Origin: Tannockella kyphosi
Lineage (GTDB): Bacteria > Bacillota_I > Bacilli_A > Erysipelotrichales > Coprobacillaceae
Length of the DNA: 32,000 nucleotides
Direction of reading: 5' to 3'
Assembly: GCF_021054785.1 (NCBI RefSeq)
Contig: NZ_CP088239.1
Location: 1,200,001-1,232,000, forward strand
Part shown: positions 10,998 to 32,000 of the stretch, one piece after another
Position numbering within the stretch: the stretch's first letter is position 1
Layout: each line of letters starts with the position of its first letter
The notes under the pieces: model-generated
What the model saw: only the letters and a program-made list of their open reading frames with translations
The model's database searches: none
What the model was told of the DNA's origin: nothing
Made by a program: the position numbers and the translations under genes

Positions 10998-11684
10998 TTA
11001 TAAGAATGAGAATAATGAGAAACTACTCATTAAGCTACTAATATAATTCATTACAATGGTACTAAATAACCATGCTCCAACAATAACAGAAGTAATTGTA
11101 ATTGCCGATGCAACATTATTTCTACCTCTTAGTTCACTACGAATAATTTCATTTGTATATAATAACCAAAGCACTAAACCTGCCACATAGACAACACTCA
11201 TTAATGTTGCTGATAAATAAGAACAGATAGCTCCGATTAGTTGTAAACAAGTAATAGGTAAATGAGCTAATCCCATTTTTGCTACCAAACTTAATAAGTA
11301 ATCTTTATCATGTTTTTTAGTAGCAATAGCAATACCACCAACATAAAGTACGACTGACATTATAATCAAACACCCTAGTATTACTGCAGCTCCTGATTTT
11401 ATTGATGATCCATAATCACCTAAATTAATCAAGAAACAAGATAAAATAGAAACTGCTAATGCTCCTCCACCAACTATTAATGATTCTTTTAAATCACTTG
11501 ATTTTATAGAACGAGTAACACTATATGGATTTTTTAAAACTCCTAAAGCTATTCTTTTAAATTTTTCAACTGGTACTTCTGGAGTAGCAGGCTCTGCTAC
11601 TTCATTACAACAAGCTTTACATGATTCACATTGACAAACACCATCAACTAATAATTCTCCACAATATTTACAATATTTTTTCAT
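10998..11684 (-). CDS. zinc-ribbon domain-containing polytopic membrane protein
   Basis: N-terminal YCKYCG...CQCESCKACC, then about five hydrophobic segments. GGGGAGAG RBS. Confidence 0.7.
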   Translation of the reverse strand: MKKYCKYCGELLVDGVCQCESCKACCNEVAEPATPEVPVEKFKRIALGVLKNPYSVTRSIKSSDLKESLIVGGGALAVSILSCFLINLGDYGSSIKSGAAVILGCLIIMSVVLYVGGIAIATKKHDKDYLLSLVAKMGLAHLPITCLQLIGAICSYLSATLMSVVYVAGLVLWLLYTNEIIRSELRGRNNVASAITITSVIVGAWLFSTIVMNYISSLMSSFSLFSFL

Positions 11685-11700
11685 TTTTCTCTCCCCTTTT

Positions 11701-13671: not shown

Positions 13672-13783
13672 TTCTCTCTCCCTTTCTAAAATATTAATGA
13701 TAATTAAATAATCCATCATCACCATATTTTAACCATAAATATACCATAATTATCTACCATAAAGCTGATAAAATCAAGCATTA

Positions 13784-14752
13784 TTATGATTGTATAGAAT
13801 TTGTTGCAACAAATTCTACTTTTAACAATATAAAAGTTTCTACTTCTTTTAATAAAACAAATAACTTAGCTCTTTCTTCAAATTCCATTCTTTCTTCAGG
13901 CAATGGACTAGACTTTAAATCATCCATTAATAAATATAACTTCTCTAACAATAATTCACCCGTATTATCTTGGTGAAATGATTGTGCTACTTCTTCTAAT
14001 AAATCAGAAACTTGTTTTGCAGTAATTGGGGCACTATGCATCGTATCAATTCTTTGATGCATGGCATATAAAACATGAAATTGTTTTTCTCTCATTTCAA
14101 GATATTCATTGTCTTTTCGATCAACATTGGATAATTGGTTCATATAGTTCGTTTCTGCTATGTTTTTAGCAATACGCAACGAATATTCCAAATCATGAAA
14201 ACACTGTCCTCCATTACTAGGAAACTGCTTATCAACGATTCTAAGTGACATACGATGTAAAATCTCTTTCATTTGTTGATCTGTTTCTTCTTTCATTTTT
14301 GTTATATAAGCATCATCCTTATGTAGATGTGCATTAACAAACATTGCCAAGCTAATTCCTATCAAAAACAATAAAATTTCATTCCCTATATTTTGTGTAT
14401 TCATAGAACTATGAATAAAATGAGAAATTAATACAGAATCAACTGCCATTGCACTTTTCCATTGGAAATGTTGACATACAACAATAAACAATAACAAGTA
14501 GATATAAAAAGAAAGATACCCATAACCAACTATTTCAAAACACAAAAAAGCAATAACTAAAGCAACTATAAAAGCTATCAAACGTTGACTTGCTGTTGCA
14601 ATCGTTTCTTTCTTTGTCGGTGCTACTGACAAAATAGCAACAACTCCTGCTGATACAGGATAATCTAATTGTAAATAATTAGCACATACAATCGATAAAA
14701 TAGCTGCAAAAGCTATTTTTAATGCATTAACATATTTTTGATTTATATTCAT
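13784..14752 (-). CDS. aromatic acid exporter (ArAE_1 / YgaE-like) family membrane protein
   Basis: 322 aa. N-terminal half has ~4-5 TM segments (KIAFAAILSIV...GVVAILSV...TASQRLIAFIVALVIAF). The soluble helical C-terminal half is typical of this family, from memory. Confidence 0.6.
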   Translation of the reverse strand: MNINQKYVNALKIAFAAILSIVCANYLQLDYPVSAGVVAILSVAPTKKETIATASQRLIAFIVALVIAFLCFEIVGYGYLSFYIYLLLFIVVCQHFQWKSAMAVDSVLISHFIHSSMNTQNIGNEILLFLIGISLAMFVNAHLHKDDAYITKMKEETDQQMKEILHRMSLRIVDKQFPSNGGQCFHDLEYSLRIAKNIAETNYMNQLSNVDRKDNEYLEMREKQFHVLYAMHQRIDTMHSAPITAKQVSDLLEEVAQSFHQDNTGELLLEKLYLLMDDLKSSPLPEERMEFEERAKLFVLLKEVETFILLKVEFVATNSIQS

Positions 14753-14858: not shown

Positions 14859-15190
14859 AATTAATTGAAATAGTTTCCTACATCCCGTTGTTTTATTAGT
14901 AGACATCAAGTGGTATCTTCTCTATTCTAATAACAAAACATGTATTTACTATTCAATAATGATAGCTATTGTTGCCCATTAACTAGTGTTTATTAAGTCC
15001 ATCGAAAAGGGGAGGAGATAGTCTTAATAAAATAAAAACCAACTACATACACATTGATTAACAATGTCTGTGCAGCTGGCTAACTTGTAATGTAAGTCCC
15101 TATAGTTTTGTGTCACCACCTCACGATGGTTTTACCGATGTATTTGATTTTACTAGGTCCGTTTGTATTATTATTGCGGGCCCTATCACA
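14859..15190 (-). promoter_or_regulatory. unclassified ~330-nt leader / candidate cis-regulatory RNA (riboswitch- or attenuator-like)
   Basis: Bounded by a good promoter (15196-15223) and the terminator (14824-14858). No convincing ORF. Locally more G+C-rich segments (GGGCCCGC, GAGGTGGTG, CTCCTCCCC). Possible helices: ACATTG/CAATGT, and CCATCG (about 15122-15127) with CGATGG (about 14999-15004). Confidence 0.35.
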
Positions 15191-18429: not shown

Positions 18430-20202
18430 TTACTTCTTTAAATTACTAATTTGTTCTTGAATTTCTAATAATTCCATCCATCGTTCACTTAACTTCTCTA
18501 TTGTTTCTTCTAATAAAGTTCTTTTAGATGATAATTCATCTAATTTACTAAAATTATTCGTTGTTTCTTGCATTTGTTGATCTATTTGTTCTAATTCTAA
18601 TTCTTTGGTTGCAATTAATTGTTCCATACCCTCTAATTCTTGTTTTTCTTTCATTGAAAGCTTTGGTATATTTTGACGTTGCAATTGTTTTTCAATAGCA
18701 TAACGTTTTGCTCCATCCCCTTTTTTACTTTCAGGTTTTTGATCTAACTCTAAATACTGACTATAACCCCCATTTACAACTGTAATTTGTTTATCTTTAA
18801 AAACAAAAACACGCTCACAAATACGATCTAAAAAATAACGATCATGACAAACTACAATAACAATACCAGGAAAGGTATCTAAATAGTCTTCTAAAATAGT
18901 TAAAGTCAAAATATCTAAATCATTTGTTGGTTCATCAAATAACAATACATTTGGTACTTGGATTAAAACCTTTAATAAATTAAGTCTTCTTTTTTGTCCT
19001 CCAGATAACCTACTAATCTTAGTTTGTTGCAAAGAAGAATCAAATAAAAATCTTTCACACATCGTTCTTGCATTTAATCTACCATCATTTGTTTCTAAAT
19101 CATCACTCGTATCTTTAATGTAGTCAATCACTTTCATATCTTCTATTAAATCATCATTTTGTTGTTTAAAATAACCTAATTTTACAGTTTCTCCTAATAC
19201 TATTTGACCATTCGTTGGTTCTAAAGCACCAGCTATTAATTTAATTAATGTAGATTTACCACTACCATTAATACCTAATATTCCAATTCGATCTTGTCTA
19301 GTACATGTATAAGAAAAGTTTGAAAATAATTCCTTTGTACCAAATGCCATGGATACATTATCAAAAATAATTGTTTTTTTACCTAATCTTTGATGAACAT
19401 CCATCATTTCTACTGATTTATTTTCTTCTATTCTTTCGATACTACTTAGTTGTTCAAAACGTTCTAAACGATCTTTACTTTTTGTTGATCTAGCTTGTAC
19501 TCCAGCACGTACCCACTCAATTTCTTTTTTTAAGAATAAATCTCTTTTTCTTTGTGTACTAAATAATTCCATTTCTCTTTTTTCTTTTTGTTCTAAATAT
19601 TGGGTATAATTACCTGGATACTCGATTAATTCTTTTCTACTAATTTCATATATTTTCGTTATAATTCGATTTAAGAAATAACGATCATGACTTACCATTA
19701 ATATTGCTTTATTATATTTGATTAAATATCTTTCTAAATATTCTATCATCATACTATCTAAATGATTGGTTGGTTCATCTAAGATTAATAAGTCACATGG
19801 TGTTAATAGCGTGATAGCTAACGCTACTCTTTTTTGTTGCCCTCCTGATAATTGTCCAATCAACTGATCATAATCATCAATTCCTAATCTATTTAACATT
19901 GCTTTTACTTCATAGTCTGGTAATTTCTTTTCATCGATATCTTGATATACTTGTTGCATCACTGTTTTGCTTTCATCAAAATCAGGATGTTGAGGAAGAT
20001 AACTAATTGTTGTATTTCCATTTTTAATAATAGTCCCAGTAACTGGTTCTAATCCAGCTATCACCTTTAAAAAAGTGGACTTTCCAGTTCCATTAACACC
20101 TAGCAGAGCTATTTTATCTTGTTCTTCAATCGTAAAAGAAGCTTGATTGAATAATTGTTTATCGCCTAATTCTTTGGTAATGCTTGCACTTGATAATAAC
20201 AT
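18430..20202 (-). CDS. ABC-F family ATPase (two ABC domains, no TM, C-terminal coiled coil)
   Basis: Walker A GVNGTGKST and GINGSGKST. Signatures LSGGQQKR and LSGGQKRR. Walker B LLILDEPTN and VLLFDEPTN. C-terminal E/K/Q/L-rich tail. Confidence 0.85.
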   Translation of the reverse strand: MLLSSASITKELGDKQLFNQASFTIEEQDKIALLGVNGTGKSTFLKVIAGLEPVTGTIIKNGNTTISYLPQHPDFDESKTVMQQVYQDIDEKKLPDYEVKAMLNRLGIDDYDQLIGQLSGGQQKRVALAITLLTPCDLLILDEPTNHLDSMMIEYLERYLIKYNKAILMVSHDRYFLNRIITKIYEISRKELIEYPGNYTQYLEQKEKREMELFSTQRKRDLFLKKEIEWVRAGVQARSTKSKDRLERFEQLSSIERIEENKSVEMMDVHQRLGKKTIIFDNVSMAFGTKELFSNFSYTCTRQDRIGILGINGSGKSTLIKLIAGALEPTNGQIVLGETVKLGYFKQQNDDLIEDMKVIDYIKDTSDDLETNDGRLNARTMCERFLFDSSLQQTKISRLSGGQKRRLNLLKVLIQVPNVLLFDEPTNDLDILTLTILEDYLDTFPGIVIVVCHDRYFLDRICERVFVFKDKQITVVNGGYSQYLELDQKPESKKGDGAKRYAIEKQLQRQNIPKLSMKEKQELEGMEQLIATKELELEQIDQQMQETTNNFSKLDELSSKRTLLEETIEKLSERWMELLEIQEQISNLKK

Positions 20203-20254: not shown

Positions 20255-20285
20255 AATCTATACAAAAACCACTCATTGAGTGGTT
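20255..20285 (-). terminator. candidate terminator at the end of the ATP-grasp operon
   Basis: On the minus strand, AACCACTC-AAT-GAGTGGTT followed by TTTGTAT..TTTTTTTT. Overlaps the stop codon at 20284-20286. Confidence 0.45.
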
Positions 20286-21219
20286 ATAAGTCTGGTGCTA
20301 TTTTAAATACTGCAGTATTCGCATACATTTTACTTTCATTTCTAGCAAATAAGATAGTCCCTTCATCAGATGATACTACTCTCCCTATTACATGTCCTTC
20401 AAAAGCATCAATTACTTCTGCAAGTACTTGGTTTTTATAAACTCTATCCCCAACTTTTACAAAGCTATGATAAAAGCCAGCTTTTTTAGAACGAATGGTA
20501 ACAATATCTTGACTACTAATTTGTTTTGAAATATATCCCTCATGTCCTTTGTAACTAATAATTCCTTGTTTTGATAAAAAACTAAGAATTGCATCAATTG
20601 CTTTCATCGCACTTTTATGATCTACTTCATCCGTTGTAGTGGTATAGATTGAAAAACTTAATGTATCCCATACTTGCCAATTATAATTTAAAGTCGCTGT
20701 ATCATAAGGACGAGGTTGATGAGCAATAACATACGGCATTCCAAAATCAGCTGCTAAATTTAATAACTCTTGATTGGGTTTATCGGCTATATTCATAACT
20801 CGAACATGTGGTAAAAAGTTACCTGGCATATAAAAAGAAGCAAGTTGCATACCATATTGATAATCTTTAATATTATCAAATAGCCCTGCTGCAATACGTT
20901 GGGTTGTTTCACCTTGATCATATCCTGGAAACATGCGATTGATATCCGTATTATCAATTCCCCAAAAACGTTTCTTTGTATTCAAAGAATACGTGTTTAC
21001 ACTAGGAACTACTAAAATCCCTTTTTTAATTAAACCTTGTTTTTCTAAACTTTTTAAACGCTCTATCAATTTTGCACAAACATATAACTGTTGATTTTCA
21101 TTCCCTCTAGTACTCCCAACAATACAAGCTGATTTTTCATTGGTACCAAATTGATAACCCACAATACGAAAATCATCTCGATAAAGACCTGTCATTTCAA
21201 ATAAAATTTTCTTTTCCAT
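20284..21219 (-). CDS. AstE/AspA (succinylglutamate desuccinylase/aspartoacylase, M14-like) family paralog with degenerate metal site
   Basis: 311 aa. Aligns by eye to the upstream paralog (NRMFPG vs NRIFPG). It has RGNE instead of HGDE (Arg codon at 21106-21108) and Ala where the third ligand His is expected. Confidence 0.7.
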   Translation of the reverse strand: MEKKILFEMTGLYRDDFRIVGYQFGTNEKSACIVGSTRGNENQQLYVCAKLIERLKSLEKQGLIKKGILVVPSVNTYSLNTKKRFWGIDNTDINRMFPGYDQGETTQRIAAGLFDNIKDYQYGMQLASFYMPGNFLPHVRVMNIADKPNQELLNLAADFGMPYVIAHQPRPYDTATLNYNWQVWDTLSFSIYTTTTDEVDHKSAMKAIDAILSFLSKQGIISYKGHEGYISKQISSQDIVTIRSKKAGFYHSFVKVGDRVYKNQVLAEVIDAFEGHVIGRVVSSDEGTILFARNESKMYANTAVFKIAPDL

Positions 21220-22181
21220 TATCGTACCTCTTGATACACTGCTTCTTTTAAAATACGTCCCATTAAAGAGCCTTCACTAACTACAGGATATTCACGAGTC
21301 GTAAACAACCATCCATTTCCAGGAGCTTGAATTATCGCTAATACTTGACCACTTAATGGATTTACAATATTACCAATCACTTCGTCTTTCCAAACATAAC
21401 TACCATGTTCTTTTTCTTTTATAAAAATACCAGAAACTGGAGCATTAAGAAACAAAACATCATCATTTCCATCAGAAATAATAGGTTTACGAATATTTCT
21501 TATTTTTTTATCATCATAAATACTTAATAAGTTCATTAAATTAAAAATCCCATCTAACAATTGATCACCATACCTTTTAGTAATACGCATACCAACACCC
21601 ATTTCAACTACAATAGTTGGTGTATTTAAAACATTTAAACTATGTGCAAAAGTCGATTCTAATACTGTACTAGCTCCATGTACCCATATAAAATCAACAT
21701 TCGCATTATTTGCATAACCCAATAACATATCTTTATGCAATTGATTAATTCTTATTTGTGGAACTTCCGTTAAAAAGATATTACTAGCATGAATATCAAT
21801 ACATAAATCAGATCCTTGTACATCTTCTATTATTTTAGCAGCAATATATTCATTCATATCACCATCGATACGTCCTGGAAAAATACGATTCATGTCTAAA
21901 TCAAAAGCTGGTATTCCTCGACTAATAGAATCAATTCCAAATGGATTTAATGCCGGATAAATATCCACAATACCCTGTAATTGATCTATATTTTCTTGAA
22001 TAATGGAAGATAATTGATAGCACACATATTGTCCTTCTAATTCATCTCCATGAATTCCTGTAACAATACTAATCCTTTTTAAACCTTCTATATTTGTTAC
22101 ACCTTTTGGTATTAAACGCATCTTTTTAACCGATAGATTTTCATCTACTGGTAACTCTACTTGTGTTACTATGATCTCCAT
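21219..22181 (-). CDS. AstE/AspA (M14-like) family zinc deacylase/carboxypeptidase
   Basis: 320 aa. GIHGDELEG places H44 at 22050-22052 and E47 at 22041-22043. Also NRIFPG and IDIHAS (H131). The stop overlaps the next ATG (TAATG). Confidence 0.75.
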   Translation of the reverse strand: MEIIVTQVELPVDENLSVKKMRLIPKGVTNIEGLKRISIVTGIHGDELEGQYVCYQLSSIIQENIDQLQGIVDIYPALNPFGIDSISRGIPAFDLDMNRIFPGRIDGDMNEYIAAKIIEDVQGSDLCIDIHASNIFLTEVPQIRINQLHKDMLLGYANNANVDFIWVHGASTVLESTFAHSLNVLNTPTIVVEMGVGMRITKRYGDQLLDGIFNLMNLLSIYDDKKIRNIRKPIISDGNDDVLFLNAPVSGIFIKEKEHGSYVWKDEVIGNIVNPLSGQVLAIIQAPGNGWLFTTREYPVVSEGSLMGRILKEAVYQEVR

Positions 22182-22192
22182 ACATACTCCCC

Positions 22193-23005
22193 TTATTTAT
22201 AAGCCTCATAAACAATAACTGAAATTGTTTGATGTTGAGTTCCTCCGCCTAAAAAAGCTCCTTGATTAATAATACAATCTAAATAATCTCGACCATTTGA
22301 TATTTTTATATGATCTTCATGAACTAATATATTGTTAGTAGGATCAATACCTATCCAATAACCAACATCCTGACAATTTTCATCTACTTCAAATATTTCT
22401 ACCCAGGCATGACTATAACCCTCTCCCACTAACAAACCAACTACATACCTTGCTGGTATTCCTGCCATTTTACAAAGCGCAATAAAAATATGAGCATAAT
22501 CTTGACATACACCACATCCTAAAGACATAGCTTGCTCCGCTGTTGTCGTGATATTGGTAACATCTTTTTTATATTCGTAACTTTTTTGTAATTGTTCCAT
22601 TATGATCATTGCTTTTTGAAAATTAGTAGATCTCTTTCCAAATTGCAATGATGCAAAGAAAGTTTGTAAAGCATGTCCTGGCTTTGTGATATTTGTAGGG
22701 TATTTATAAAACCCAACTTTATAAACATCTTCATAAATACGTGCTTCATTTCTACCTGTGTATGCTGTTCCTATTACATCAAAATAGAATTTTTGATGTG
22801 CCTCTGGTGCATGCCCCATAATACAAGCATTATGAAAAGAATCATTACTTTCACTAAGGTATTGATTAGGATAAACATCTACTTTTAAGTTTTCAATTTT
22901 TTGATTTGTATCACTTAATGGTATACATTTTAATGTAAAATGATGATTTTGGACATCATCATCAAACATTATGTCCATGTGATAATGAAAGTATAACTGC
23001 TTCAT
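22193..23005 (-). CDS. transglutaminase-like cysteine protease family protein (with an N-terminal Bact_transglu_N-like segment)
   Basis: 270 aa. Catalytic triad candidates: C167 in GVCQDYAH (22505-22507), H199 in YSHAWVE, D221 in GIDPTN. Confidence 0.8.
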   Translation of the reverse strand: MKQLYFHYHMDIMFDDDVQNHHFTLKCIPLSDTNQKIENLKVDVYPNQYLSESNDSFHNACIMGHAPEAHQKFYFDVIGTAYTGRNEARIYEDVYKVGFYKYPTNITKPGHALQTFFASLQFGKRSTNFQKAMIIMEQLQKSYEYKKDVTNITTTAEQAMSLGCGVCQDYAHIFIALCKMAGIPARYVVGLLVGEGYSHAWVEIFEVDENCQDVGYWIGIDPTNNILVHEDHIKISNGRDYLDCIINQGAFLGGGTQHQTISVIVYEAYK

Positions 23006-23017
23006 AATAATGCCCTT

Positions 23018-23680
23018 CTAAATTAGATTTTCTACTACCTTTATTAATTGAACATAATCAATTGGATTTGACTTAGTTAATTCAATAATTTGGTCAATAT
23101 CTTCTTGATGATAAGCTAATTTTGTTTGTTCTATACGTCTTTGTAAACGATATGCTTCTATTTTTATTTCTTCTTGACTAGCATGTAGACGAGTATATAA
23201 ACTTAATTTTTCAATACGTTTCCCTGTTTTCATTAGATTTCTAGCATTACGATTAACCATTATTTCATTAACCATTCCCCAAAATGCCATTAAATCATCC
23301 ATCACTTTTTGTAATTCAATCAATGGTGCTAAAGAAAGTAATGCTTTATCCATATCATAAATAGCAAGTTGAATATAAGATAATGTATCGCTCCCTATTT
23401 CTTCTCTTAATACAATCGCATTATCATATGCTCTAGTTAAATTACTAGCAATAGAATTAGTATCGGTTTGATCAAAACAATAACGTTTACAAAAATCTTC
23501 TGTAGAAGTATAAATATTTGGAATATCTAAATTCATACAAAACTCTTTATAATGATTAAAATCAGTATCAATCATTATATCATAACTATCTGAAAATAAC
23601 TTTAATGTTTCATACACACGTTGTGTGTATCTTCCTAACCAAATTAATTGGTCTGAATGTTCTAACGAGATAATACCCAT
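23018..23680 (-). CDS. alpha-E domain protein (short form)
   Basis: 220 aa. The N-terminal LEHSDQLIWLGRYTQRVYETLKLF matches the alpha-E signature I recall (..WMGRY.ERAE.). Overlaps the ATP-grasp gene by 19 nt. Confidence 0.7.
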   Translation of the reverse strand: MGIISLEHSDQLIWLGRYTQRVYETLKLFSDSYDIMIDTDFNHYKEFCMNLDIPNIYTSTEDFCKRYCFDQTDTNSIASNLTRAYDNAIVLREEIGSDTLSYIQLAIYDMDKALLSLAPLIELQKVMDDLMAFWGMVNEIMVNRNARNLMKTGKRIEKLSLYTRLHASQEEIKIEAYRLQRRIEQTKLAYHQEDIDQIIELTKSNPIDYVQLIKVVENLI

Positions 23681-24981
23681 GTGTCCTTGAAACCTCCCCC
23701 TTGTGATGAATTAACAATAAATGAATTAGGATCTCTAGTAAAACGAGTTAATCCACTTTTCCATACCATTGGCTCTTCTGCCATTAAAACAAATGCTCGA
23801 AGATCCGCTTTTCTTTTAACAATAATACCATTATCCACAATATCCTCATCTAAAAAATCAATTACTTCTTGTGCAATAAACCTTCTAGGTTCTGCCTTCA
23901 TTAAAGTAATAAAACTTTCTTTTTGATCAGGTGTCATTTTACTACCAAAGACAACACCATATCCTCCTGCTTCTGCTACATCCTTTAATACCAAATTATC
24001 AAAGTTTTCTAATACATAATCCATATCTTTTTGATAAAAAGGTAAATAAGTTGGCGCATTTTGTAAAATAGCCTTTTCATTTAAATAATATTCTATCATT
24101 TTAGGAACAAAATAATAAATTCCTTTATCATCTGCTACTCCATTACCTGGTGCATTTAAAATAGCTACATTTCCTTTTCTAAACACATCATACAAATGAG
24201 GTATTCCAATTAATGATTCTGGATTAAACGTCATAGGATCCAAATATTCATCTGAAATACGACGATAAACAGCCCCTACTTTTTGTTTATTCCCAGTATA
24301 ATCAATAAAATATAAATAATCATTCTCTACCACCAATTCATTACCTGTTGCAAGTCTTGAACCAGTTTGTTCAGCAAGATAAGAATGTTCAAAATAAGCA
24401 GCATTATATCTACCTGGTGTTAAAATAATATTTAAACCCCCAGTATTAGAATAATCCATCGTTGCCTTTAACATCTTTGCATAATCACGGTTATCTTCAA
24501 TTTGATTATCATGGAAAATACCAGGACATCCTCTTCTTGTTAACTTCCTAGCAATCATCGGATAAGATGCTCCTGAAGGAACTCGTAAATTATCTTCTAA
24601 AATATACCATTCTTTGTTTTTTCCTTGTACCAAATCAATTCCAGAAATATGACTATAAATACCTTTAGAAGGCATTACTTCTTCACACATTGGTAAATAA
24701 CCACTACATGAATAAATAAAATCCTCTGGTATAATATTATCCTTCACAATTTGTTTTTCATGATAAATATCTTTAATAAATAAATTTAATGCTTTCACCC
24801 TTTGTTTTAATCCTGCCTCCAAAACATCAAATTCATCTTTTGGAATAATACGAGGAATTGTATCAAAAGGAAACAATTGTTCAACAAACGTATTGTTTTT
24901 ATAAATACCAAACTTTACTCCATATCGGGCTAACAAATCATTAATAACCTCTTTTTTATTTAACAAGTCTTCATACAACAT
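23662..24981 (-). CDS. circularly permuted type 2 ATP-grasp protein (COG2308-like)
   Basis: 439 aa. FPFDTIPRIIPKDEFDVLEAGLKQRVKALNLFIKDIYHEKQIVKDNIIPEDFIY closely resembles the family N-terminal region as I recall it. GGGAGGA RBS. Confidence 0.75.
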   Translation of the reverse strand: MLYEDLLNKKEVINDLLARYGVKFGIYKNNTFVEQLFPFDTIPRIIPKDEFDVLEAGLKQRVKALNLFIKDIYHEKQIVKDNIIPEDFIYSCSGYLPMCEEVMPSKGIYSHISGIDLVQGKNKEWYILEDNLRVPSGASYPMIARKLTRRGCPGIFHDNQIEDNRDYAKMLKATMDYSNTGGLNIILTPGRYNAAYFEHSYLAEQTGSRLATGNELVVENDYLYFIDYTGNKQKVGAVYRRISDEYLDPMTFNPESLIGIPHLYDVFRKGNVAILNAPGNGVADDKGIYYFVPKMIEYYLNEKAILQNAPTYLPFYQKDMDYVLENFDNLVLKDVAEAGGYGVVFGSKMTPDQKESFITLMKAEPRRFIAQEVIDFLDEDIVDNGIIVKRKADLRAFVLMAEEPMVWKSGLTRFTRDPNSFIVNSSQGGGFKDTWVLSR

Positions 24982-25059: not shown

Positions 25060-25094
25060 CGAACATCCAACAAATAAAAATATTACTTTTTCAA

Positions 25095-25129
25095 ATAAAA
25101 AAATAAGTGAGGAAATTCCATCACTTATT
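25095..25129 (-). terminator. rho-independent terminator ending the Wadjet-like operon
   Basis: On the minus strand, AATAAGTGA-TGGAATTTCC-TCACTTATT followed by TTTTATTTG. Overlaps the stop codon of the 117-aa gene. Confidence 0.6.
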
Positions 25130-25474
25130 CATGTCAATTTCATATTTAGCAAGGACACCATTTCCCCTAGGATGTCCGTGTTCTTCACTCTTTGTTAGGG
25201 CTACTACCCCTAATTCTTTAAATAAAACTCCATCAATCATTGCTTTTTCTTGAAATTCTTCAATTGTTGCAAAAAACTGATCATCTAAATAAAGTCCTTT
25301 ATCTATTCTTTTTCCTTTTGCTACTTCATAACAATTCATCCCTACTCTATGTGTTTTTTCTTTGTATTCAAATGTTAAATTTTCTATCATTGTATCGTAC
25401 ATTCTATCTACTTCAAAAGCAGCAATAATCGCTTTTGCATCACAATATAGAGGGGCTTTTTTCTTAAAAAACAT
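25121..25474 (-). CDS. hypothetical 117-aa protein, fifth cistron of the Wadjet-like operon
   Basis: AAGGAG RBS. Starts 12 nt after the jetD stop with no intervening terminator. No family recognised. Confidence 0.65.
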   Translation of the reverse strand: MFFKKKAPLYCDAKAIIAAFEVDRMYDTMIENLTFEYKEKTHRVGMNCYEVAKGKRIDKGLYLDDQFFATIEEFQEKAMIDGVLFKELGVVALTKSEEHGHPRGNGVLAKYEIDMNK

Positions 25475-25486: not shown

Positions 25487-26746
25487 TTATTTTAATTTTT
25501 GTATGTATTTTTGATGTAATGCTTCTTGATAAGTAGCATACTTACATTGCTTTAAGGCATCACAAATAGGTAATAATTGATCATTTATGCATTTATCTAA
25601 CATCTTTAATCTTTTTTCACTAATCATTTTCGATGATAAATGTTGATAATAATTATCCGTTTCATAGTTCCATAAAGAAATAGTTGGATATCTAGTTAAT
25701 AATTTATCGGCAATCAATATTCCTTCAGGATCAAAATCACCTGCATAATAAATAGTTGCACTTGTTTTACTTAGAATATCTAACAATAAATATGCTGCTA
25801 AATTTAATTGCCCATAGGTACATATAAAAGCACAATCTTCCATATTATTTTGTTTTCCATGCAAACATAAATATCGAAACGTAGATGGATTTTCTAAAAT
25901 ATAAACTCGTTTAGGAACTATGATTTCTTTGATTTGACGAATATTATAAACTTGAATAATCCAAGGTTCATATAAGTCATACATTGCTTGCCATGCTAGA
26001 TGAATATCTTCCATCTTTGCACTTAAATGACAAATCATAACAAAGTTAGATACATCATTAGAAATAAGACCAGCTTGATAATATAAAAAATCTTTTTTTA
26101 TTATCTCATCCTCTTCATCAAAACCAAAGATATGTTCTAGAATGGAAATAAATAAATTTTGATATGCTAATCGATCTAAGAAATGAGGGTCTTTTAAATG
26201 ATTTTCTAAAAATTCAATTAGTAATTGAGTCTTTTGTTGGAAAACAGGAAGAACATTTATTGCATTAAATAAAGAAATCAAAGTATCTTTATCTTCTTTC
26301 CATAGTTTAAAAATATTGATAAAACTAGTTGGTTGACTAACTACCTTTTCTATAAAAGAATATATTGGTTGATTTTCATACATATCCAATAAATCTTCTA
26401 GAAAAGATAAATAACTTTCTTTTTCTTGCTTTTTGTTTTGTTTTTTAAAATAGAAAGGTGATCCCTTATGTAATTCTAACATTTTTACAAAATCCATCTC
26501 TTCATAATTACTTTTATCCAATGCTTTTTTTACTTTGTTAAAAGATATCTTCCATTCACTACCACCAGGTAGTGTTACCTGTAATAGTGCTGCAATAGAT
26601 TCCTTTTCATCATTTGATAAATCAACTAAAACAATAGAACCGCCTAAATATTCTAACTGTTCATATCTTTCTAACCATTTATCCAAAAAAACAGGAATAC
26701 CTGGTTTAGAGCTAGCATATTGCAAAAACTGCTCTTCTATAGCCAT
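25487..26746 (-). CDS. jetD: JetD-like Toprim nuclease subunit (TIGR02679 / DUF2399-like)
   Basis: 419 aa. Toprim Glu in YILENPSTF (E285 at 25892-25894) and DxD in YAGDFDPEG (25730-25738). Overlaps jetC by 10 nt. Confidence 0.75.
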   Translation of the reverse strand: MAIEEQFLQYASSKPGIPVFLDKWLERYEQLEYLGGSIVLVDLSNDEKESIAALLQVTLPGGSEWKISFNKVKKALDKSNYEEMDFVKMLELHKGSPFYFKKQNKKQEKESYLSFLEDLLDMYENQPIYSFIEKVVSQPTSFINIFKLWKEDKDTLISLFNAINVLPVFQQKTQLLIEFLENHLKDPHFLDRLAYQNLFISILEHIFGFDEEDEIIKKDFLYYQAGLISNDVSNFVMICHLSAKMEDIHLAWQAMYDLYEPWIIQVYNIRQIKEIIVPKRVYILENPSTFRYLCLHGKQNNMEDCAFICTYGQLNLAAYLLLDILSKTSATIYYAGDFDPEGILIADKLLTRYPTISLWNYETDNYYQHLSSKMISEKRLKMLDKCINDQLLPICDALKQCKYATYQEALHQKYIQKLK

Positions 26747-29700
26747 GTGTCTAACATCCTTTTATTCGTACCATTCCACTTATATAAAACCATTGTTACA
26801 AATTTTGCATTTTCTGGTCGATATAAATCATAGATAGCCAGATTTTTAACTGCTGGATAATCACCCCAAAGAACTTGTGAGTTAATAATATAGTCGAAAT
26901 CAAACTTAGCAATTAGCTCAAACATATTATTGATATTTTTTTCATCAATTCCTGCAAAAGCTTCATCTAAAGCAATTAAAACTGGAGAATCACTTCTAGC
27001 ATTTTCAAACTTCGCTGCTACTGCAGAAAATAATGGAACATACATAGACATTGCTTTTTCCCCACCACTATAAGAATTAAATAAATTGTTTGTTAATTCT
27101 TTTTTGTTTTCACCTGTTTTTTGAGTCATTATTTTAAAATCAAACCACTGACGATAATCTATTGCATCCTGCATTAATTGATGAAAGCTAAGTAAATTCC
27201 CTGTTTGCATTTGTTGTTTTCTAGCTTCATCAATTTTTACTCTAAAATGATTGGATAGTTTTTGACGATCACTTGGTTTTAATAATTGTGGATCAGCTTG
27301 TAAAAGTGTAATTAATTCACGAGTATGCAATTGTTCTTGTCCATCTGATGTTCTTTTTTCCCATTTCAAACTCAATGAAAGTCCACTACTTGTATCCATT
27401 CCCCTCATGTAACGATTCATTTTTTCTACCCAATCTAAACTACTTTGAATATGTTTACGTATCTTTTGACTAACTGTATTCACTAAAATATCCTCAAATA
27501 AATTCTTATCTGATTCTAATAACAATACTTCTTCTAATTCCAAAGCCTCTAATTGATAATTTTTAAGTTTTTCTAAACTTACTTGTTGTCCTGCATACCT
27601 TGCTTTAATATCTATTCTTGTTTTTAAATCATCAACTCCATCGCATGGAAATATGGATAATAACAATAAATTATTTTCTTGTAATGCAACACGATGTTGG
27701 TTCATCATAGCTTGTACTTCTAAAGCTAAGTTTTCTGGATTTTTCCTTACTTCATAATTCGAATATTTTTCTTTCAAACATTTATCATAATCCACTTTTT
27801 TAGTATCTCTATCAAAAACATAAAATAATTCTAGTTCTTCATATAAAAAAGATTGATATAATTGTGTGTTTTCTTTTTTAGAAATAATTAATTTTTGATT
27901 ATTATTTAATTGTTCTTGTGTTGTTTCTAAAGAAGTACGTAAACTACCAATATGAACATTCTCTTGAATAATTAAATCTTTAATTTCATGTAAACGTTTT
28001 GAAATTACTTCTAATCTTTCTTTTATATCTTCAAAACCAGCTTCTTTTAATAATTCATTCTTACTTATTAATTGTACTAAAATCGTATCTAAGTTATTTT
28101 GAGTTTGATAGATTTCTCCTTTTAATAACAATACATCTTCTTCTAGTTCTTCTAGAGATAGATGATAGTGTTGTTTTATTTCAAATTCGGAAACATATTT
28201 ATTGTGTTGCACTTGAATTTCACGCACATTTTTTTGAATATCACGATATCCTTCTACTTGTTTGGTAAAGTTTTCTTTTGATGGATGCATTTGTAACATA
28301 TTTCCAAGTTCTTTAATTTTATTTGATTTTTGTTTTAATAAAACATCCTCTTTTTCCACTAAAACACTTAATTCTTGTATTTGATTCATAATTACTTCCA
28401 TTGTTTGGTTTACCTTATGAATACTCTCTACCACTAATTTCAAATCTTCTTCTAAAAGAAAACTATTTTTTTCATTTTGAAGAGCTTCAAAAATCAAATC
28501 AATATCCATTATTTGTTTTTCATTTTCTGTTATTTTATTTTCTAAATCTTCAATTTCTTGTGATAACATATTTATCTTAGTTTGACGATAGATTGTTCTT
28601 GCCTCATTGCCGATATAGATTGATTCTTCCTCTTTCGATAAAGTTCCTTCTAAGAATCCATAACGATAAGTTTGGTCATTCCATGTAATCTTTGCATGAA
28701 GTGGACATCGTAAAGCTAAATAATCATTCACTTGTTTTTCAATACTTTTTATATCATTTCCCGTTAAATAACAAGCACTTACATCTAATTGATCAACAAA
28801 TATATAATTATCACTCATCCCATTAGGATTATTTACAATAACCTCTCGATCATCATTTCTAACAACTAGACTATACAATAATCCACTATTAAAAAATATT
28901 TCTTCGACTATTTTTTTTGTTGCATCTTCTACATCTTCTTTGAATTCAAATAACTCATAAAACATTTGATAAGAGATATTATTTTGTTTTAAATATTTCC
29001 TATTTGCAATTGATTTTTCTGTTAGTTTTGGTGTAATTGTAATCATATTTTGCCAATATTCAAGTTCATTATCTAATTTCAATAATGTTACCTTATATTG
29101 TTCTTGTTCTTTTTTTAATCTAGATTTATTTAAAAGATTATCTTGATAAGATTCTAAATAACAATCAGAAATCATTGTTAAAATATCACGATAATTATTT
29201 TCTTCTAAATAATCACATAAAATAGAAATAAGTAACTCTAATTTAGTTTGATCTAATTTTAGATATTTATTTTTGGCATTCCAATGATAAATATTTTCTT
29301 TATATTCTTCTATTTTTATTTCATATCTTTCCGTTGCTTGTTTTAATAAGTTTTCTTGTTCTTCTATTGAGTTTTTATAAGATTCTATTTGTTCTACTTT
29401 TTGGTCTAACTGTTTCTTTTCTAATTCATATTCTTGGAATAATTGCAAACCTGTTAATAGATGTCCTAAAATAGTATCCGTATTTGTAAAGAATTCTCCA
29501 TACTCATAAGAATTAGTAAGATTCGTCATTAGATCTTGTTTTAATATTTCATAGTCCGTACTTCCAATTGTTTTTTGTGCTTGATTGCATTCTAAAAAAG
29601 ATTCATGGATGGTACGATCTAATAAAGATAACTCATAGTTTTTCTGTTCTAATTTTTTTTCATTTTTACGATAAGTATCTTCTTTGTTTTCTAATGTTAT

Positions 29701-30747
29701 TTGTTTTATTTGAATCGTTTGATTTTTTTCTTTTTTCTCTTTTTCTAATAATTGTACTTGATCGTATAATTGATTAATGTTGTCATTAGAAATAGTTGCT
29801 TCTTCTTGTTGTAAAACTAATTGTTCATCATTTAGTTGTTTTAGTAAATTAGTAGTACTGTCTAATTCTAATTGTTTTCGTTCTAATAATTTATTGTTTT
29901 CTTTTTCTAGTTTTTGAAATTGTTGTAAATCTTTGTTTTCTCGATTATATTTTTGATATTTGTCATATAACATATATTCATTATATTTATCAAAAACAAA
30001 AAGAATTGATTTACTACTATGTATTGCTGTTTTTAGCGTTTCTATATTATCATGATGGCTATCCATATTAGATATTGCTTCACTCATAGGACGTAACTCA
30101 TCTTGTGATAATGGTTGCAATGAATCTCTTAGCATCTCATTAATAGCAGTTGGTTTTAATGTGTTGCTTAATTTTGGCATACGTAATTTCAAAATCAAGT
30201 CAATCGCCTCTTTGTAAATATCATTACTCGCAAATCCAAAAATACTTTGATTTACTCTTTCCATATATGCTTTTTGACCTTCTATATATTGTGAACCAAG
30301 GATGTTTCTTAACTGCAGTTTTGTAATTGCAAGTTTCCCATCATATAAGGAAATTTCTTTGTTAATGCGACGATTATCATCGATAACAAAATACCAAGAA
30401 TCCAATGGTTTTCCTTTTCTTGCACGCATCCCCATACCGATTGTTTTATATATTTCACTATCTTCTCTTTTAAATTCTATATATAAATAACCAATTCGAT
30501 CATCTCTACCTGATTGTTCATCTAACAAATAACTTTCTAGTTTTCTAGATTTACTTCCAAAGGCATCTAACCTTTCACTGCTTTTATTCCCATCTAACAA
30601 CAAAGGAATAAAGCTTTGCATCGTAACTGATTTTCCACTACCATTGCTTCCTCTAAGCAACATATGTCCATGATCAAAATAAAATTCCTCATTTACATAA
30701 AACCAAAAATCAACTACCCCTAATTTATTCATATGCCATTTACTCAT
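26737..30747 (-). CDS. jetC: JetC-like SMC/Rad50-type ATPase (TIGR02680-like)
   Basis: 1336 aa. Walker A GSNGSGKS (30628-30651), very long E/K/Q/L-rich coiled-coil centre, signature SGGE (27058-27069), Walker B LIALDE (D at 26965-26967). Confidence 0.85.
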   Translation of the reverse strand: MSKWHMNKLGVVDFWFYVNEEFYFDHGHMLLRGSNGSGKSVTMQSFIPLLLDGNKSSERLDAFGSKSRKLESYLLDEQSGRDDRIGYLYIEFKREDSEIYKTIGMGMRARKGKPLDSWYFVIDDNRRINKEISLYDGKLAITKLQLRNILGSQYIEGQKAYMERVNQSIFGFASNDIYKEAIDLILKLRMPKLSNTLKPTAINEMLRDSLQPLSQDELRPMSEAISNMDSHHDNIETLKTAIHSSKSILFVFDKYNEYMLYDKYQKYNRENKDLQQFQKLEKENNKLLERKQLELDSTTNLLKQLNDEQLVLQQEEATISNDNINQLYDQVQLLEKEKKEKNQTIQIKQITLENKEDTYRKNEKKLEQKNYELSLLDRTIHESFLECNQAQKTIGSTDYEILKQDLMTNLTNSYEYGEFFTNTDTILGHLLTGLQLFQEYELEKKQLDQKVEQIESYKNSIEEQENLLKQATERYEIKIEEYKENIYHWNAKNKYLKLDQTKLELLISILCDYLEENNYRDILTMISDCYLESYQDNLLNKSRLKKEQEQYKVTLLKLDNELEYWQNMITITPKLTEKSIANRKYLKQNNISYQMFYELFEFKEDVEDATKKIVEEIFFNSGLLYSLVVRNDDREVIVNNPNGMSDNYIFVDQLDVSACYLTGNDIKSIEKQVNDYLALRCPLHAKITWNDQTYRYGFLEGTLSKEEESIYIGNEARTIYRQTKINMLSQEIEDLENKITENEKQIMDIDLIFEALQNEKNSFLLEEDLKLVVESIHKVNQTMEVIMNQIQELSVLVEKEDVLLKQKSNKIKELGNMLQMHPSKENFTKQVEGYRDIQKNVREIQVQHNKYVSEFEIKQHYHLSLEELEEDVLLLKGEIYQTQNNLDTILVQLISKNELLKEAGFEDIKERLEVISKRLHEIKDLIIQENVHIGSLRTSLETTQEQLNNNQKLIISKKENTQLYQSFLYEELELFYVFDRDTKKVDYDKCLKEKYSNYEVRKNPENLALEVQAMMNQHRVALQENNLLLLSIFPCDGVDDLKTRIDIKARYAGQQVSLEKLKNYQLEALELEEVLLLESDKNLFEDILVNTVSQKIRKHIQSSLDWVEKMNRYMRGMDTSSGLSLSLKWEKRTSDGQEQLHTRELITLLQADPQLLKPSDRQKLSNHFRVKIDEARKQQMQTGNLLSFHQLMQDAIDYRQWFDFKIMTQKTGENKKELTNNLFNSYSGGEKAMSMYVPLFSAVAAKFENARSDSPVLIALDEAFAGIDEKNINNMFELIAKFDFDYIINSQVLWGDYPAVKNLAIYDLYRPENAKFVTMVLYKWNGTNKRMLDTWL

Positions 30748-30759
30748 TACAATGCCTCC

Positions 30760-31866
30760 TTAAAATGATCCTACTATTTTTGCTACAATTGGAAAAATAA
30801 CTACCATTTGTTCTTCTAATAAAATAAACCCTACGTTTTCTTGATATTCGATAACTTGTTTTGTTAAATTTTCAATTCCTACTATTTGATATTTTTTTGG
30901 TAATTTCTCAATATTTGTTTTCAATATTTTTTGTATTGCCAAATCATATTCTGTTTTTTGGATACTGACTATTTCATGTTCATTCTTTATCCATTTATTA
31001 TTTTTTATTAATTTCCTAATGTTTTCATTTACAATTAAACATAAATCATTCATTGTCCCAACACCTGGAATTGTTTTCTTTAAAATAGCATCTTCATCTA
31101 TTACTAGATAAGCACTTGATGAATGTACTTGCAAAGTACATGGAAATAACTTTTGGAAATCTTTTTCAATTTGATTTCGATAATTTCTAACATATTGAAA
31201 ATCCTCTTCATCACTTGTACTATAACGATAAATACCCAATGATAATAACAACTTACGATACACTCTTTGTCTACGAACAATCCCTCGATTTTCTTCTATT
31301 CCTATCCATTGTCCATAAAGAAAGTCTTCTGATTTTTGATAATCCATGATATCTGTTGTAAAATGTCTCATAAAGTAACGTGAGTTTCCTGTATTTTCAT
31401 ATAATGCATTTGCTTTTTCATCTTTTAAAAAGCCTTCTTCATCTCCATCATTTAGAATTAGTAATCCATTTTTTAGAGCAAATTTGATAACATGAATAAA
31501 TTGTCTTCTATTTTTATGAGTTTCCCAATCAATTTGATTATTTTGAAATTGAGTTTTGATGTATTCACTAATATCTAATAGTGCAAATTGTTCTTCTATT
31601 TCTTTATCTTCTAAATACATTAGAAGATAACAAAACATTTGATATTCTGTATTTGTTTGAAATTCTTGGATACCCATCCACCCTTCTCCTTTACCAGGAA
31701 TTTTTTCTAATTTGATTAGATTTTGGGTGATTATTAAGTTATAACCTATTTTTTCATATACTTTTTGTCTTATTTCTTTGCTATCATCTTTTATTTGATA
31801 ATACAGTTCGGTATTATCTTTTTTTAATACCCATCTTCTATTTAACAGTTCTTCAATTGTTTTCAT
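30760..31866 (-). CDS. jetB: JetB-like subunit (DUF2398 / TIGR02678-like)
   Basis: 368 aa. The N-terminal LLNRRWVLKKDNTELYYQIKDDSKEIRQKVYEKIGYNLIIT pattern matches my recollection of TIGR02678. Lies between the partial upstream ORF and jetC. Confidence 0.65.
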   Translation of the reverse strand: MKTIEELLNRRWVLKKDNTELYYQIKDDSKEIRQKVYEKIGYNLIITQNLIKLEKIPGKGEGWMGIQEFQTNTEYQMFCYLLMYLEDKEIEEQFALLDISEYIKTQFQNNQIDWETHKNRRQFIHVIKFALKNGLLILNDGDEEGFLKDEKANALYENTGNSRYFMRHFTTDIMDYQKSEDFLYGQWIGIEENRGIVRRQRVYRKLLLSLGIYRYSTSDEEDFQYVRNYRNQIEKDFQKLFPCTLQVHSSSAYLVIDEDAILKKTIPGVGTMNDLCLIVNENIRKLIKNNKWIKNEHEIVSIQKTEYDLAIQKILKTNIEKLPKKYQIVGIENLTKQVIEYQENVGFILLEEQMVVIFPIVAKIVGSF

Positions 31867-32000
31867 TTAGAATCCTCTCCAAATATAATCTTAAAGCAAG
31901 GTGTAATAAAATCACCATCACTACATTTTAAAACACATTCCCCTTCTTTTTCTTTTTCTACTCGATAAATTAATCCAGAATCTGTTTTTGCTGTTTTCGA
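31863..32000 (-). CDS. jetA: C-terminal end of an upstream ORF, probably the JetA-like (DUF2397/TIGR02677-like) subunit
   Basis: My translation gives ...SKTAKTDSGLIYRVEKEKEGECVLKCSDGDFITPCFKIIFGEDSK*. The TGA stop overlaps the jetB ATG (ATGA). Identity is inferred from operon position only. Confidence 0.45.
   Translation of the reverse strand, partial: SKTAKTDSGLIYRVEKEKEGECVLKCSDGDFITPCFKIIFGEDSK

What the first reader, a model, noticed from the sequence alone, without database searches (positions are those of the whole stretch)
25487..32000. Wadjet-like SMC anti-plasmid defence operon (jetA partial, jetB, jetC, jetD) with intact catalytic motifs
Four tightly coupled minus-strand genes: an ATGA overlap at 31863-31866, a 12-nt gap at 30748-30759 and a 10-nt overlap at 26737-26746. 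They encode a partial upstream ORF, a 368-aa DUF2398-like protein, a 1336-aa SMC-like ATPase and a 419-aa Toprim protein. The ATPase has Walker A GSNGSGKS, signature SGGE, Walker B LIALDE and a huge coiled coil. The Toprim protein retains its Glu and DxD residues. This is the TIGR02677-02680 cassette architecture. As far as I recall, that cassette is one of the Wadjet subtypes, which restrict circular plasmid DNA by SMC loop extrusion and JetD cleavage. It is a known family, but it is the clearest defence system in the window and looks functional.
Basis: partly seen in the sequence, partly recalled or inferred. Interest (0 to 1): 0.65.

Follow-up and report, generated by a model that had tools for sequence, protein, structure and literature searches.

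The report
Type II Wadjet anti-plasmid operon
This is an intact but ordinary copy of a known bacterial anti-plasmid system (type II Wadjet, jetABCD) in the chromosome of a poorly sampled gut-type Bacillota lineage, and the only new detail is a small co-transcribed gene of unknown function after jetD.

Summary
Four tightly coupled minus-strand genes sit at exactly the stated coordinates, with the stated junctions and motifs. Profile searches assign all four to type II Wadjet: JetA2 (the window holds only its C-terminus), JetB2 1e-119, JetC2 E=0, JetD2 5e-95. They match TIGR02677, 02678 and 02680 above the curated cutoffs. TIGR02679 aligns full-length but scores below its cutoff. JetC and JetB match the cryo-EM structure of the biochemically characterised Neobacillus vireti type II complex (PDB 9QE0/9QE1). 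A metagenomic contig identical to the window over 6,345 nt supplies the missing jetA (493 aa, full length). JetD keeps every residue that is invariant across 30 homologs (E285, D337, D339, E341).

It starts 12 nt after the jetD stop, has its own Shine-Dalgarno sequence, and is followed by a terminator hairpin. It belongs to a tiny uncharacterised family with a confident predicted fold and no structural match. Its relatives do not lie next to Wadjet, so it is most likely a passenger gene.

The host is an Erysipelotrichales (Coprobacillaceae-like) bacterium, and its closest JetD relatives are only 41-43% identical. Verdict: a new, divergent member of a known kind, of low interest.

The parts
31863..32000 (-). 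jetA (kleisin, DUF2397), C-terminal 45 codons plus stop; the gene continues beyond the window edge
   Evidence: Translation. PADLOC JetA2 matches profile positions 453-494 of 496, E=4e-8. The full 493-aa JetA was recovered from contig L004, which is identical to the window over 6,345 nt. It scores JetA2 3.8e-179 and TIGR02677 283.6 bits against a cutoff of 165.85.
30760..31866 (-). jetB (type II tandem-KITE subunit, DUF2398), 368 aa
   Evidence: PADLOC JetB2 1.1e-119. TIGR02678 scores 134.3 bits against a cutoff of 124.65. Pfam DUF2398 scores 268 bits over profile positions 2-362 of 363. It matches N. vireti JetB, PDB 9qe0_D, at 4.8e-51.
26737..30747 (-). jetC (SMC-like ABC ATPase with long coiled coil and hinge), 1336 aa. 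Walker A is at 30628-30651, the signature at 27058-27069, Walker B at 26962-26979 and the D-loop at 26944-26961
   Evidence: PADLOC JetC2 scores 1198 bits, E=0. TIGR02680 scores 611.5 bits against a cutoff of 462.85. It aligns full-length to N. vireti JetC, PDB 9qe0_A, at 2e-153.
25487..26746 (-). jetD (CAP-like N-terminal DUF3323 plus Toprim DUF2399 nuclease), 419 aa. The Toprim Glu (ILENPS) is at 25883-25900 and the DxD (GDFDPEG) at 25721-25741
   Evidence: PADLOC JetD2 5.3e-95 over profile positions 5-424 of 430. Pfam DUF3323 and DUF2399 are both above their gathering scores. E285, N286, G336, D337, D339, P340, E341 and G342 are invariant in 30 homologs.
25121..25474 (-). Fifth co-transcribed ORF, 117 aa, an uncharacterised small alpha/beta protein; probably a passenger gene and not a Wadjet subunit
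   Evidence: It starts 12 nt after the jetD stop with an AAGGAG Shine-Dalgarno sequence. It has no Pfam, NCBIfam, PADLOC or PHROGs hit. Its family comprises 16 representative proteins with E<=0.001, the query included. The AlphaFold2 model has pLDDT 90.6 and no Foldseek match. Relatives lie in non-Wadjet contexts.
25091..25130 (-). Terminator-like hairpin (AAUAAGUGAUGGAAUUUCCUCACUUAUU) followed by a U-run; the likely 3' end of the operon
   Evidence: RNA fold gives -13.7 kcal/mol, z = -2.87 against shuffles. The consensus scanner missed it because the stem is AT-rich. A strong promoter-like site for the next operon lies at 25059-25031, matching 11 of 12 positions with an extended TG.

Best explanation
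This is a complete, apparently intact type II Wadjet (JetABCD) anti-plasmid system in the chromosome of an Erysipelotrichales (Coprobacillaceae-like) bacterium. The mechanism below is inferred by homology to the reconstituted N. vireti type II and E. coli/P. aeruginosa type I systems. JetA (kleisin), JetB (a single tandem-KITE subunit) and a JetC dimer (SMC-like ATPase) form a motor unit, and two motor units dimerise through the JetA N-terminus. The complex loads on DNA and extrudes loops using ATP hydrolysis. On a small circular molecule, extrusion runs to completion and the motors stall against each other. This recruits or activates the JetD Toprim nuclease dimer, which cuts the plasmid without sequence specificity. 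In the type II system that has been reconstituted, cutting depends on Mn2+. The large chromosome and linear DNA escape. The five genes (jetA, jetB, jetC, jetD and a 117-aa ORF) are translationally coupled and end at a hairpin terminator. The 117-aa protein is most likely a passenger of unknown function.
For: Shown here:
- Gene order, tight coupling and intact frames.
- Subtype-specific PADLOC profiles hit all four proteins over their full length.
- TIGR02677, 02678 and 02680 are above their curated cutoffs.
- JetC and JetB are homologous to the solved N. vireti type II structure 9QE0/9QE1.
- The JetC ATPase motifs are present.
- The invariant JetD Toprim residues are retained.
- The full-length JetA was recovered from a contig identical to the window.
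- A second strain, with 42 differences in 10.5 kb, carries the JetD C-terminus and an identical 117-aa protein.

From the literature: nvJET-II needs JetABC, JetD, ATP and Mn2+, and cuts only circular DNA at random positions (10.1101/2025.03.10.642339). A native Wadjet system lowers conjugative plasmid uptake about 10^5-fold in Clostridium cellulovorans (PMC12287153).
Against: There are no functional data for this locus. JetD scores below the curated TIGR02679 cutoff (132.3 against 196 bits). Neither JetD alone nor its family profile matches any solved structure by sequence, so its link to the characterised type I JetD rests on Pfam and PADLOC profiles and on motif conservation. The closest JetD in 5.8 billion proteins is only 41-43% identical, so the properties of nvJET-II (Mn2+ dependence, size limit) may not transfer. 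No promoter was identified in the 97 nt known upstream of jetA.
Confidence: 0.9

Rival explanations
1. The locus is a five-component variant in which the 117-aa protein is a lineage-specific Wadjet accessory. It could be a regulator, a self-protection factor or a modulator of JetD or JetB. It would be co-expressed stoichiometrically because it is translationally coupled to jetD.
For: It starts 12 nt after the jetD stop with its own Shine-Dalgarno sequence, and no terminator separates it from jetD; the terminator comes only after it. The protein is identical in a second strain. It has a confident, compact predicted fold with no known relative. Related type II loci also carry variable small genes at their ends, namely HIRAN-like and ASCH-like genes. 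Its family profile gives a weak collinear hit to the anti-CRISPR DNA mimic AcrIIA2, E=0.24.
Against: None of the four family members with readable context lies next to Wadjet genes. The five related jetABCD operons examined, whose JetD is 38-43% identical, do not have this gene. The AcrIIA2 hit is not significant, and AcrIIA2 is not among the 50 best matches listed by Foldseek. The family is absent from the phage and plasmid collections.
Confidence: 0.08
2. The locus is a non-defensive or decayed SMC system. It would either be a MksBEF-like chromosome-organising complex or an inactive remnant that no longer restricts plasmids.
For: Wadjet complexes are homologous to MukBEF/MksBEF and probably also extrude loops on the chromosome (discussion of 10.1101/2025.03.10.642339). 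No expression or activity data exist for this locus.
Against: The nuclease subunit JetD is present, full-length and keeps all invariant catalytic residues. All four frames are intact with full profile coverage. The ATPase motifs are canonical. The best hits are Wadjet type II profiles, not condensin profiles; SMC_prok_B scores only 20 bits.
Confidence: 0.04

Closest known systems
Neobacillus vireti LMG 21834 type II Wadjet (nvJET-II; PDB 9QE0/9QE1; Roisne-Hamelin, Liu & Gruber, bioRxiv 10.1101/2025.03.10.642339)
   Same: It has the same four-gene architecture. JetC is enlarged (1336 aa here, 1371 aa there) and aligns end to end at E=2e-153. JetB is enlarged and of tandem-KITE size (368 aa here, 388 there; E=5e-51). 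JetD has DUF3323 plus a Toprim domain.
   Different: The sequences are distant. phmmer aligns JetB only over residues 6-285. There is no solved structure of a type II JetD to compare with. This locus has an additional co-transcribed 117-aa ORF. The host is an Erysipelotrichales bacterium rather than a Bacillaceae. Mn2+ dependence and the roughly 50-kb size limit have not been tested here.
Type I Wadjet (E. coli GF4-3 and P. aeruginosa PA14 JetABCD; Corynebacterium glutamicum MksBEFG)
   Same: The logic is the same: a kleisin, a KITE subunit and an SMC motor combined with a Toprim nuclease. The inferred mechanism is also the same, loop extrusion followed by cleavage of small circular DNA. The Toprim Glu and DxD are conserved.
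   Different: Type I has a shorter JetC and a KITE homodimer of about 240-aa JetB subunits. Its hinge has a central channel and its JetD N-terminal CAP/arm differs. Type I and type II subunits are not interchangeable. Type I PADLOC profiles hit this JetC only weakly (56 bits against 1198 bits for type II).
MukBEF / MksBEF condensins
   Same: They share the SMC-kleisin-KITE architecture. According to the nvJET-II paper, the dimer geometry and the compact channel-less hinge of type II resemble MukBEF.
   Different: Condensins have no nuclease subunit and a chromosome-organising role. Here JetD is present and intact.
Native Wadjet of Clostridium cellulovorans 743B (PMC12287153)
   Same: It is a chromosomal jetABCD in an anaerobic Bacillota. 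[quoted passage not shown]
   Different: That system was compared with the Bacillus cereus Q1 Jet proteins. Its relationship to this locus was not tested here.

Membership tests
Wadjet type II (JetA2-JetB2-JetC2-JetD2; TIGR02677-TIGR02680 cassette) | Four co-oriented, adjacent genes in the order jetA-jetB-jetC-jetD | tested here: met
   ORF map and junctions. jetA was completed from the identical contig L004.
Wadjet type II (JetA2-JetB2-JetC2-JetD2; TIGR02677-TIGR02680 cassette) | JetA kleisin of the DUF2397 / TIGR02677 family | tested here: met
   The full 493-aa protein from L004 scores PADLOC JetA2 3.8e-179 and TIGR02677 283.6 bits against a cutoff of 165.85. The window itself holds only the last 45 codons, which hit the JetA2 C-terminus at 4e-8.
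Wadjet type II (JetA2-JetB2-JetC2-JetD2; TIGR02677-TIGR02680 cassette) | Enlarged (about 370-390 aa) JetB of the DUF2398 / TIGR02678 family (tandem KITE) | tested here: met
   It is 368 aa. Pfam DUF2398 scores 268 bits across the whole profile. TIGR02678 scores 134.3 bits against a cutoff of 124.65. PADLOC JetB2 is 1e-119. It is homologous to the tandem-KITE chain 9qe0_D. The four-WHD fold itself was not modelled here.
Wadjet type II (JetA2-JetB2-JetC2-JetD2; TIGR02677-TIGR02680 cassette) | Enlarged SMC-like JetC (TIGR02680) with Walker A, Q-loop, signature, Walker B and D-loop flanking a long coiled coil and hinge | tested here: met
   TIGR02680 scores 611.5 bits against a cutoff of 462.85. 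PADLOC JetC2 scores 1198 bits. It aligns end to end with 9qe0_A. Residues of roughly 250-600 and 750-1200 are rich in E/K/Q/L/R and poor in Pro/Gly, which fits coiled-coil arms around a hinge (a crude proxy).
Wadjet type II (JetA2-JetB2-JetC2-JetD2; TIGR02677-TIGR02680 cassette) | JetD with an N-terminal DUF3323 domain and a C-terminal Toprim domain (DUF2399) that keeps the catalytic Glu and DxD | tested here: met
   Pfam DUF3323 scores 75.8 bits and DUF2399 72.5 bits, both above their gathering scores. PADLOC JetD2 scores 317 bits. E285, D337, D339 and E341 are invariant among 30 homologs.
Wadjet type II (JetA2-JetB2-JetC2-JetD2; TIGR02677-TIGR02680 cassette) | JetD reaches the curated NCBIfam TIGR02679 equivalog cutoff | tested here: inconclusive
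   It aligns full-length (profile positions 3-380 of 382, E=2.3e-38) but scores 132.3 bits, below the 196-bit cutoff. This measures divergence of this clade from the seed sequences and does not indicate a missing domain.
Wadjet type II (JetA2-JetB2-JetC2-JetD2; TIGR02677-TIGR02680 cassette) | Assignment to type II rather than type I or type III | tested here: met
   All top PADLOC hits are type-2 profiles. JetC1 profiles score 56 bits or less and a JetD3 profile scores 32.5 bits.
Wadjet type II (JetA2-JetB2-JetC2-JetD2; TIGR02677-TIGR02680 cassette) | ATP- and JetD-dependent cleavage of circular DNA only; restriction of plasmids in vivo | not testable with these tools
   This needs biochemistry or genetics. 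It is known for nvJET-II and for native C. cellulovorans Wadjet.
MukBEF/MksBEF condensin (considered and rejected) | An SMC-kleisin-KITE operon without an associated nuclease gene | tested here: not met
   An intact jetD overlaps the end of jetC by 10 nt.
AcrIIA2-like DNA-mimic anti-CRISPR (considered for the 117-aa ORF only) | Significant sequence or structural similarity to AcrIIA2 and residence on phage or prophage DNA | tested here: not met
   The profile hit has E=0.24. AcrIIA2 is not among the 50 best matches listed by Foldseek against the PDB. tblastn finds no match in the phage or plasmid collections.

The most novel reading that the evidence does not exclude
The translationally coupled 117-aa protein, which has a confident predicted fold and no match in the PDB or BFVD, is a lineage-specific fifth component that tunes this Wadjet system. 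It might, for example, hold JetD or the tandem-KITE JetB in check to protect the chromosome. More generally, the variable small genes seen at the ends of this clade's jetABCD operons (HIRAN-like, ASCH-like and this ORF) would then be an unrecognised layer of Wadjet accessories.
Probability: 0.08. Interest if true: 0.55.

Novelty: new member of a known kind. Interest (0 to 1): 0.2.

Why it matters
Practically, a native Wadjet system predicts that this poorly sampled Erysipelotrichales lineage will resist small plasmids. Deleting jetABCD may therefore be needed to make it genetically tractable, as was shown for C. cellulovorans. Scientifically, it adds a divergent type II sequence (the closest JetD relative is 41-43% identical) to a subtype that has only one biochemically characterised representative. 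That is useful for conservation mapping of the tandem KITE and of the type II JetD N-terminal domain. It does not open a new question by itself.

Tried and rejected
- A genome-contig scan with JetD found no relative among the GTDB species representatives. A second scan with the ABC-F protein found only distant hits. I placed the host from the names attached to ABC-F homologs instead.
- JetD alone and the JetD family profile gave no hit against PDB sequences, so I could make no direct sequence link to solved type I JetD or MksG structures.
- The single-sequence AlphaFold2 model of the 117-aa protein was unusable (pLDDT 34.6). With the 14-sequence alignment it was confident, but Foldseek found nothing significant in the PDB or BFVD.
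- I examined the weak AcrIIA2 hit and rejected it as non-significant. The family is absent from the phage and plasmid collections.
- The small genes downstream of jetD in L013 (ASCH-like and a 118-aa unknown) are not homologous to the 117-aa ORF.
- The consensus terminator scan found nothing. Direct folding found the AT-rich hairpin.
- No consensus promoter was found in the 97 nt upstream of jetA.
- A literature search for Wadjet accessory genes listed no paper that looked, from its title or abstract, to be about an accessory gene of a Wadjet operon. I did not open those papers.
Full report
**Observation.**
- jetD is at 25487-26746 (419 aa), jetC at 26737-30747 (1336 aa) and jetB at 30760-31866 (368 aa), all on the minus strand.
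- A further frame stays open from 31863 to the window edge (45 codons).
- Reading the junctions base by base confirms the ATGA stop/start overlap at 31863-31866.
- The jetB-jetC gap is 12 nt ('ggaggcattgta', which contains a GGAGG Shine-Dalgarno sequence), and the jetC-jetD overlap is 10 nt (ATGGCTATAG).
- The quoted motifs are present. JetC has GSNGSGKS at aa 33-40, SGGE at 1227-1230, LIALDE at 1257-1262 and the D-loop AFAGID at 1263-1268.
- JetD has ILENPS (E285) and GDFDPEG (D337-x-D339).

**Identity.** Three independent profile libraries agree.
- PADLOC assigns the proteins to the type II Wadjet profiles: JetD2 5.3e-95, JetC2 1198 bits (E=0), JetB2 1.1e-119, and JetA2 4e-8 for the 44-residue C-terminal fragment, which matches the very end of the profile.
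- NCBIfam gives TIGR02680 at 611.5 bits (cutoff 462.85) and TIGR02678 at 134.3 bits (cutoff 124.65). TIGR02679 aligns full-length but scores 132.3 bits, below its 196-bit cutoff.
- Pfam gives DUF2398, DUF3323+DUF2399 and SbcC_Walker_B, all above their gathering scores.
- Type I and type III profiles hit only weakly.

**Link to a characterised system.** Against PDB sequences, JetC aligns end to end with JetC of entry 9QE0/9QE1 (E=2e-153), and JetB aligns with the JetB chain of the same entry (E=4.8e-51). That entry is the cryo-EM structure of the Neobacillus vireti type II Wadjet complex (bioRxiv 10.1101/2025.03.10.642339).

**Completing jetA.** Four metagenomic contigs encode exactly this JetB. 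One of them, L004, is identical to the window over the whole 6,345-nt overlap and extends 1,441 nt beyond window position 32000. It carries a 493-aa JetA, which scores JetA2 3.8e-179 and TIGR02677 283.6 bits against a cutoff of 165.85.

**Integrity of the nuclease.** I aligned JetD with 29 homologs that are 21-41% identical to it. The invariant columns include E285, N286, G336, D337, D339, P340, E341 and G342, which are the Toprim Glu and the DxD(PEG) block, and this protein retains all of them. Neither JetD nor its family profile matches any PDB sequence. This is consistent with the nvJET-II paper, whose cryo-EM preparations lacked JetD, so that its comparisons relied on AlphaFold3 predictions of nvJetD.

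**Mechanism (inferred by homology).** For nvJET-II the paper reports the following:
- The motor units have JetA1B1C2 stoichiometry and dimerise through the kleisin N-terminal winged-helix domain.
- The KITE subunit is a single tandem protein, the coiled coil is long, and the hinge has no central channel.
- Plasmid cleavage needs JetABC, JetD, ATP and Mn2+. It occurs at random positions, leaves short 5' overhangs and spares linear DNA.
- In vivo restriction wanes at DNA circles of about 50 kb and above.
- Type I and type II subunits are not interchangeable.

The locus here has the same subunit set and sizes and all the catalytic motifs, so the same extrusion-then-cleavage mechanism is the best-supported explanation. 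What is shown here is homology, intact frames and intact motifs. Activity, metal dependence and the size limit are inferred. A native Wadjet system in another anaerobic Bacillota, C. cellulovorans, reduces conjugative plasmid uptake about 10^5-fold (PMC12287153).

- The transcription unit does not stop at jetD. Twelve nucleotides after the jetD stop, preceded by AAGGAG, a 117-aa ORF begins (25121-25474).
- It is followed by a hairpin plus U-run (25091-25130; -13.7 kcal/mol, z = -2.87).
- A strong promoter-like site at 25059-25031 (11 of 12 matches with an extended TG) then starts the next operon, which encodes a circularly permuted ATP-grasp protein, an alpha-E protein and a transglutaminase.
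- The 117-aa protein has no hit in Pfam, NCBIfam, PADLOC or PHROGs.
- The word-indexed search of 5.8 billion proteins found only itself and one 60%-identical cluster. An exhaustive phmmer search of 1.84 billion representatives found 16 proteins with E<=0.001, the query included. Most are stand-alone proteins of 116-130 aa.
- The family alignment shows invariant F2, C11, G45, F74 and P102, together with an FYLDxQxFxTxEEF block and a GxPRN motif.
- With this alignment AlphaFold2 gives a confident alpha/beta model (pLDDT 90.6, pTM 0.82). Foldseek finds nothing significant in the PDB or BFVD.
- A profile search of PDB sequences puts the anti-CRISPR AcrIIA2 on top at E=0.24. That is not significant, and AcrIIA2 is not among the 50 best matches listed by Foldseek.
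- The family is also absent from the phage and plasmid collections.

**Is the fifth gene part of the system?** Probably not.
- The four family members with readable context sit in unrelated neighbourhoods: after an ABC transporter, before a methionine sulfoxide reductase gene, or among unknown genes.
- The five related jetABCD operons I examined, whose JetD is 38-43% identical, lack it.
- Those relatives do carry other small genes at the operon ends. L008, L010 and L011 have a HIRAN-like gene upstream of jetA. In L013 and L014 an ASCH-like gene overlaps the jetD stop and is followed by a 118-aa unknown gene, and neither is homologous to the 117-aa ORF.
- I treat the fifth gene as a co-transcribed passenger and give the accessory-subunit reading a small residual probability.

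**Context and host.**
- The window is chromosomal. It contains MoaC/MoaB genes and a type IV pilus or pseudopilus cluster comprising pilins, a prepilin peptidase, PilC-like T2SSF and PilB-like T2SSE proteins.
- It also holds a c-di-GMP-I riboswitch and AzlCD, ABC-F and ATP-grasp operons.
- Both GTDB scans failed to find a close genome.
- The nearest named homologs of the ABC-F protein are from Coprobacillaceae and Thomasclavelia at 60-66% identity, and the closest unnamed one is 76% identical. The host is therefore an under-sampled Erysipelotrichales lineage.
- A second strain, differing at 42 positions in 10.5 kb, carries the same jetD end and an identical 117-aa protein.

**Verdict.** The finding is correct and its interpretation is supported, with the subtype now fixed as type II. 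It is a new, divergent member of a known and recently characterised kind. It is a useful annotation and has practical relevance for genetic tractability, but a specialist would not find it surprising. Interest is 0.2.

Noticed in passing
window 25121-25474 (-): A 117-aa ORF is co-transcribed after jetD. It belongs to a tiny uncharacterised family: 16 proteins with E<=0.001 among 1.84 billion representatives, the query included. The predicted alpha/beta fold is confident (pLDDT 90.6) but has no significant Foldseek match in the PDB or BFVD. The family profile's top PDB hit is AcrIIA2 at a non-significant E=0.24.
   Followed up: yes
L008 995-1336, L010 995-1336, L011 2059-2367; L013 10281-11015, L014 8573-9307: The closest related type II jetABCD operons carry different small genes at their ends. 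Some have a HIRAN-like 102-113-aa gene upstream of jetA, directly adjacent in L011 and separated from jetA by a 333-aa unknown gene in L008 and L010. Others have an ASCH-like 113-aa gene overlapping the jetD stop, followed by a 118-aa unknown gene. These may be a variable accessory layer or just neighbours.
   Followed up: partly
window 15068-15146 (-): A c-di-GMP-I riboswitch aptamer (RF01051, 48.2 bits against a gathering score of 35) lies between the FecR/Listeria-Bacteroides-repeat surface protein gene and the aromatic acid exporter family gene (13784-14752). The gene it controls was not determined.
   Followed up: no
window 3420-10847 (-): A type IV pilus or competence-pseudopilus-like cluster. 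It has three small proteins with N-terminal methylation motifs, three unknown ORFs, T2SSF (PilC-like), a prepilin peptidase (A24) and a T2SSE ATPase with an MshEN domain. Two unannotated ORFs of 228 and 674 aa at 10998-13725 have no Pfam hit.
   Followed up: no
window 20284-24981 (-), promoter-like site 25059-25031: An operon encodes a circularly permuted ATP-grasp protein, an alpha-E domain protein, a transglutaminase-core protein and two AstE/AspA-like proteins. It begins immediately downstream of the Wadjet terminator, behind a near-consensus extended -10 promoter-like site.
   Followed up: no
L004-L007, position 1 (97 nt upstream of jetA; 1,441 nt beyond window position 32000): Four independent metagenome assemblies all break at exactly the same base 97 nt upstream of jetA. 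This suggests a repeat or a strain-variable junction at the upstream border of the Wadjet operon.
   Followed up: no
whole window: Host placement: the nearest named homologs of the ABC-F protein (18430-20202) are from Coprobacillaceae and Thomasclavelia at 60-66% identity. Two scans of the GTDB species representatives found no close genome. GC content is about 30%.
   Followed up: partly
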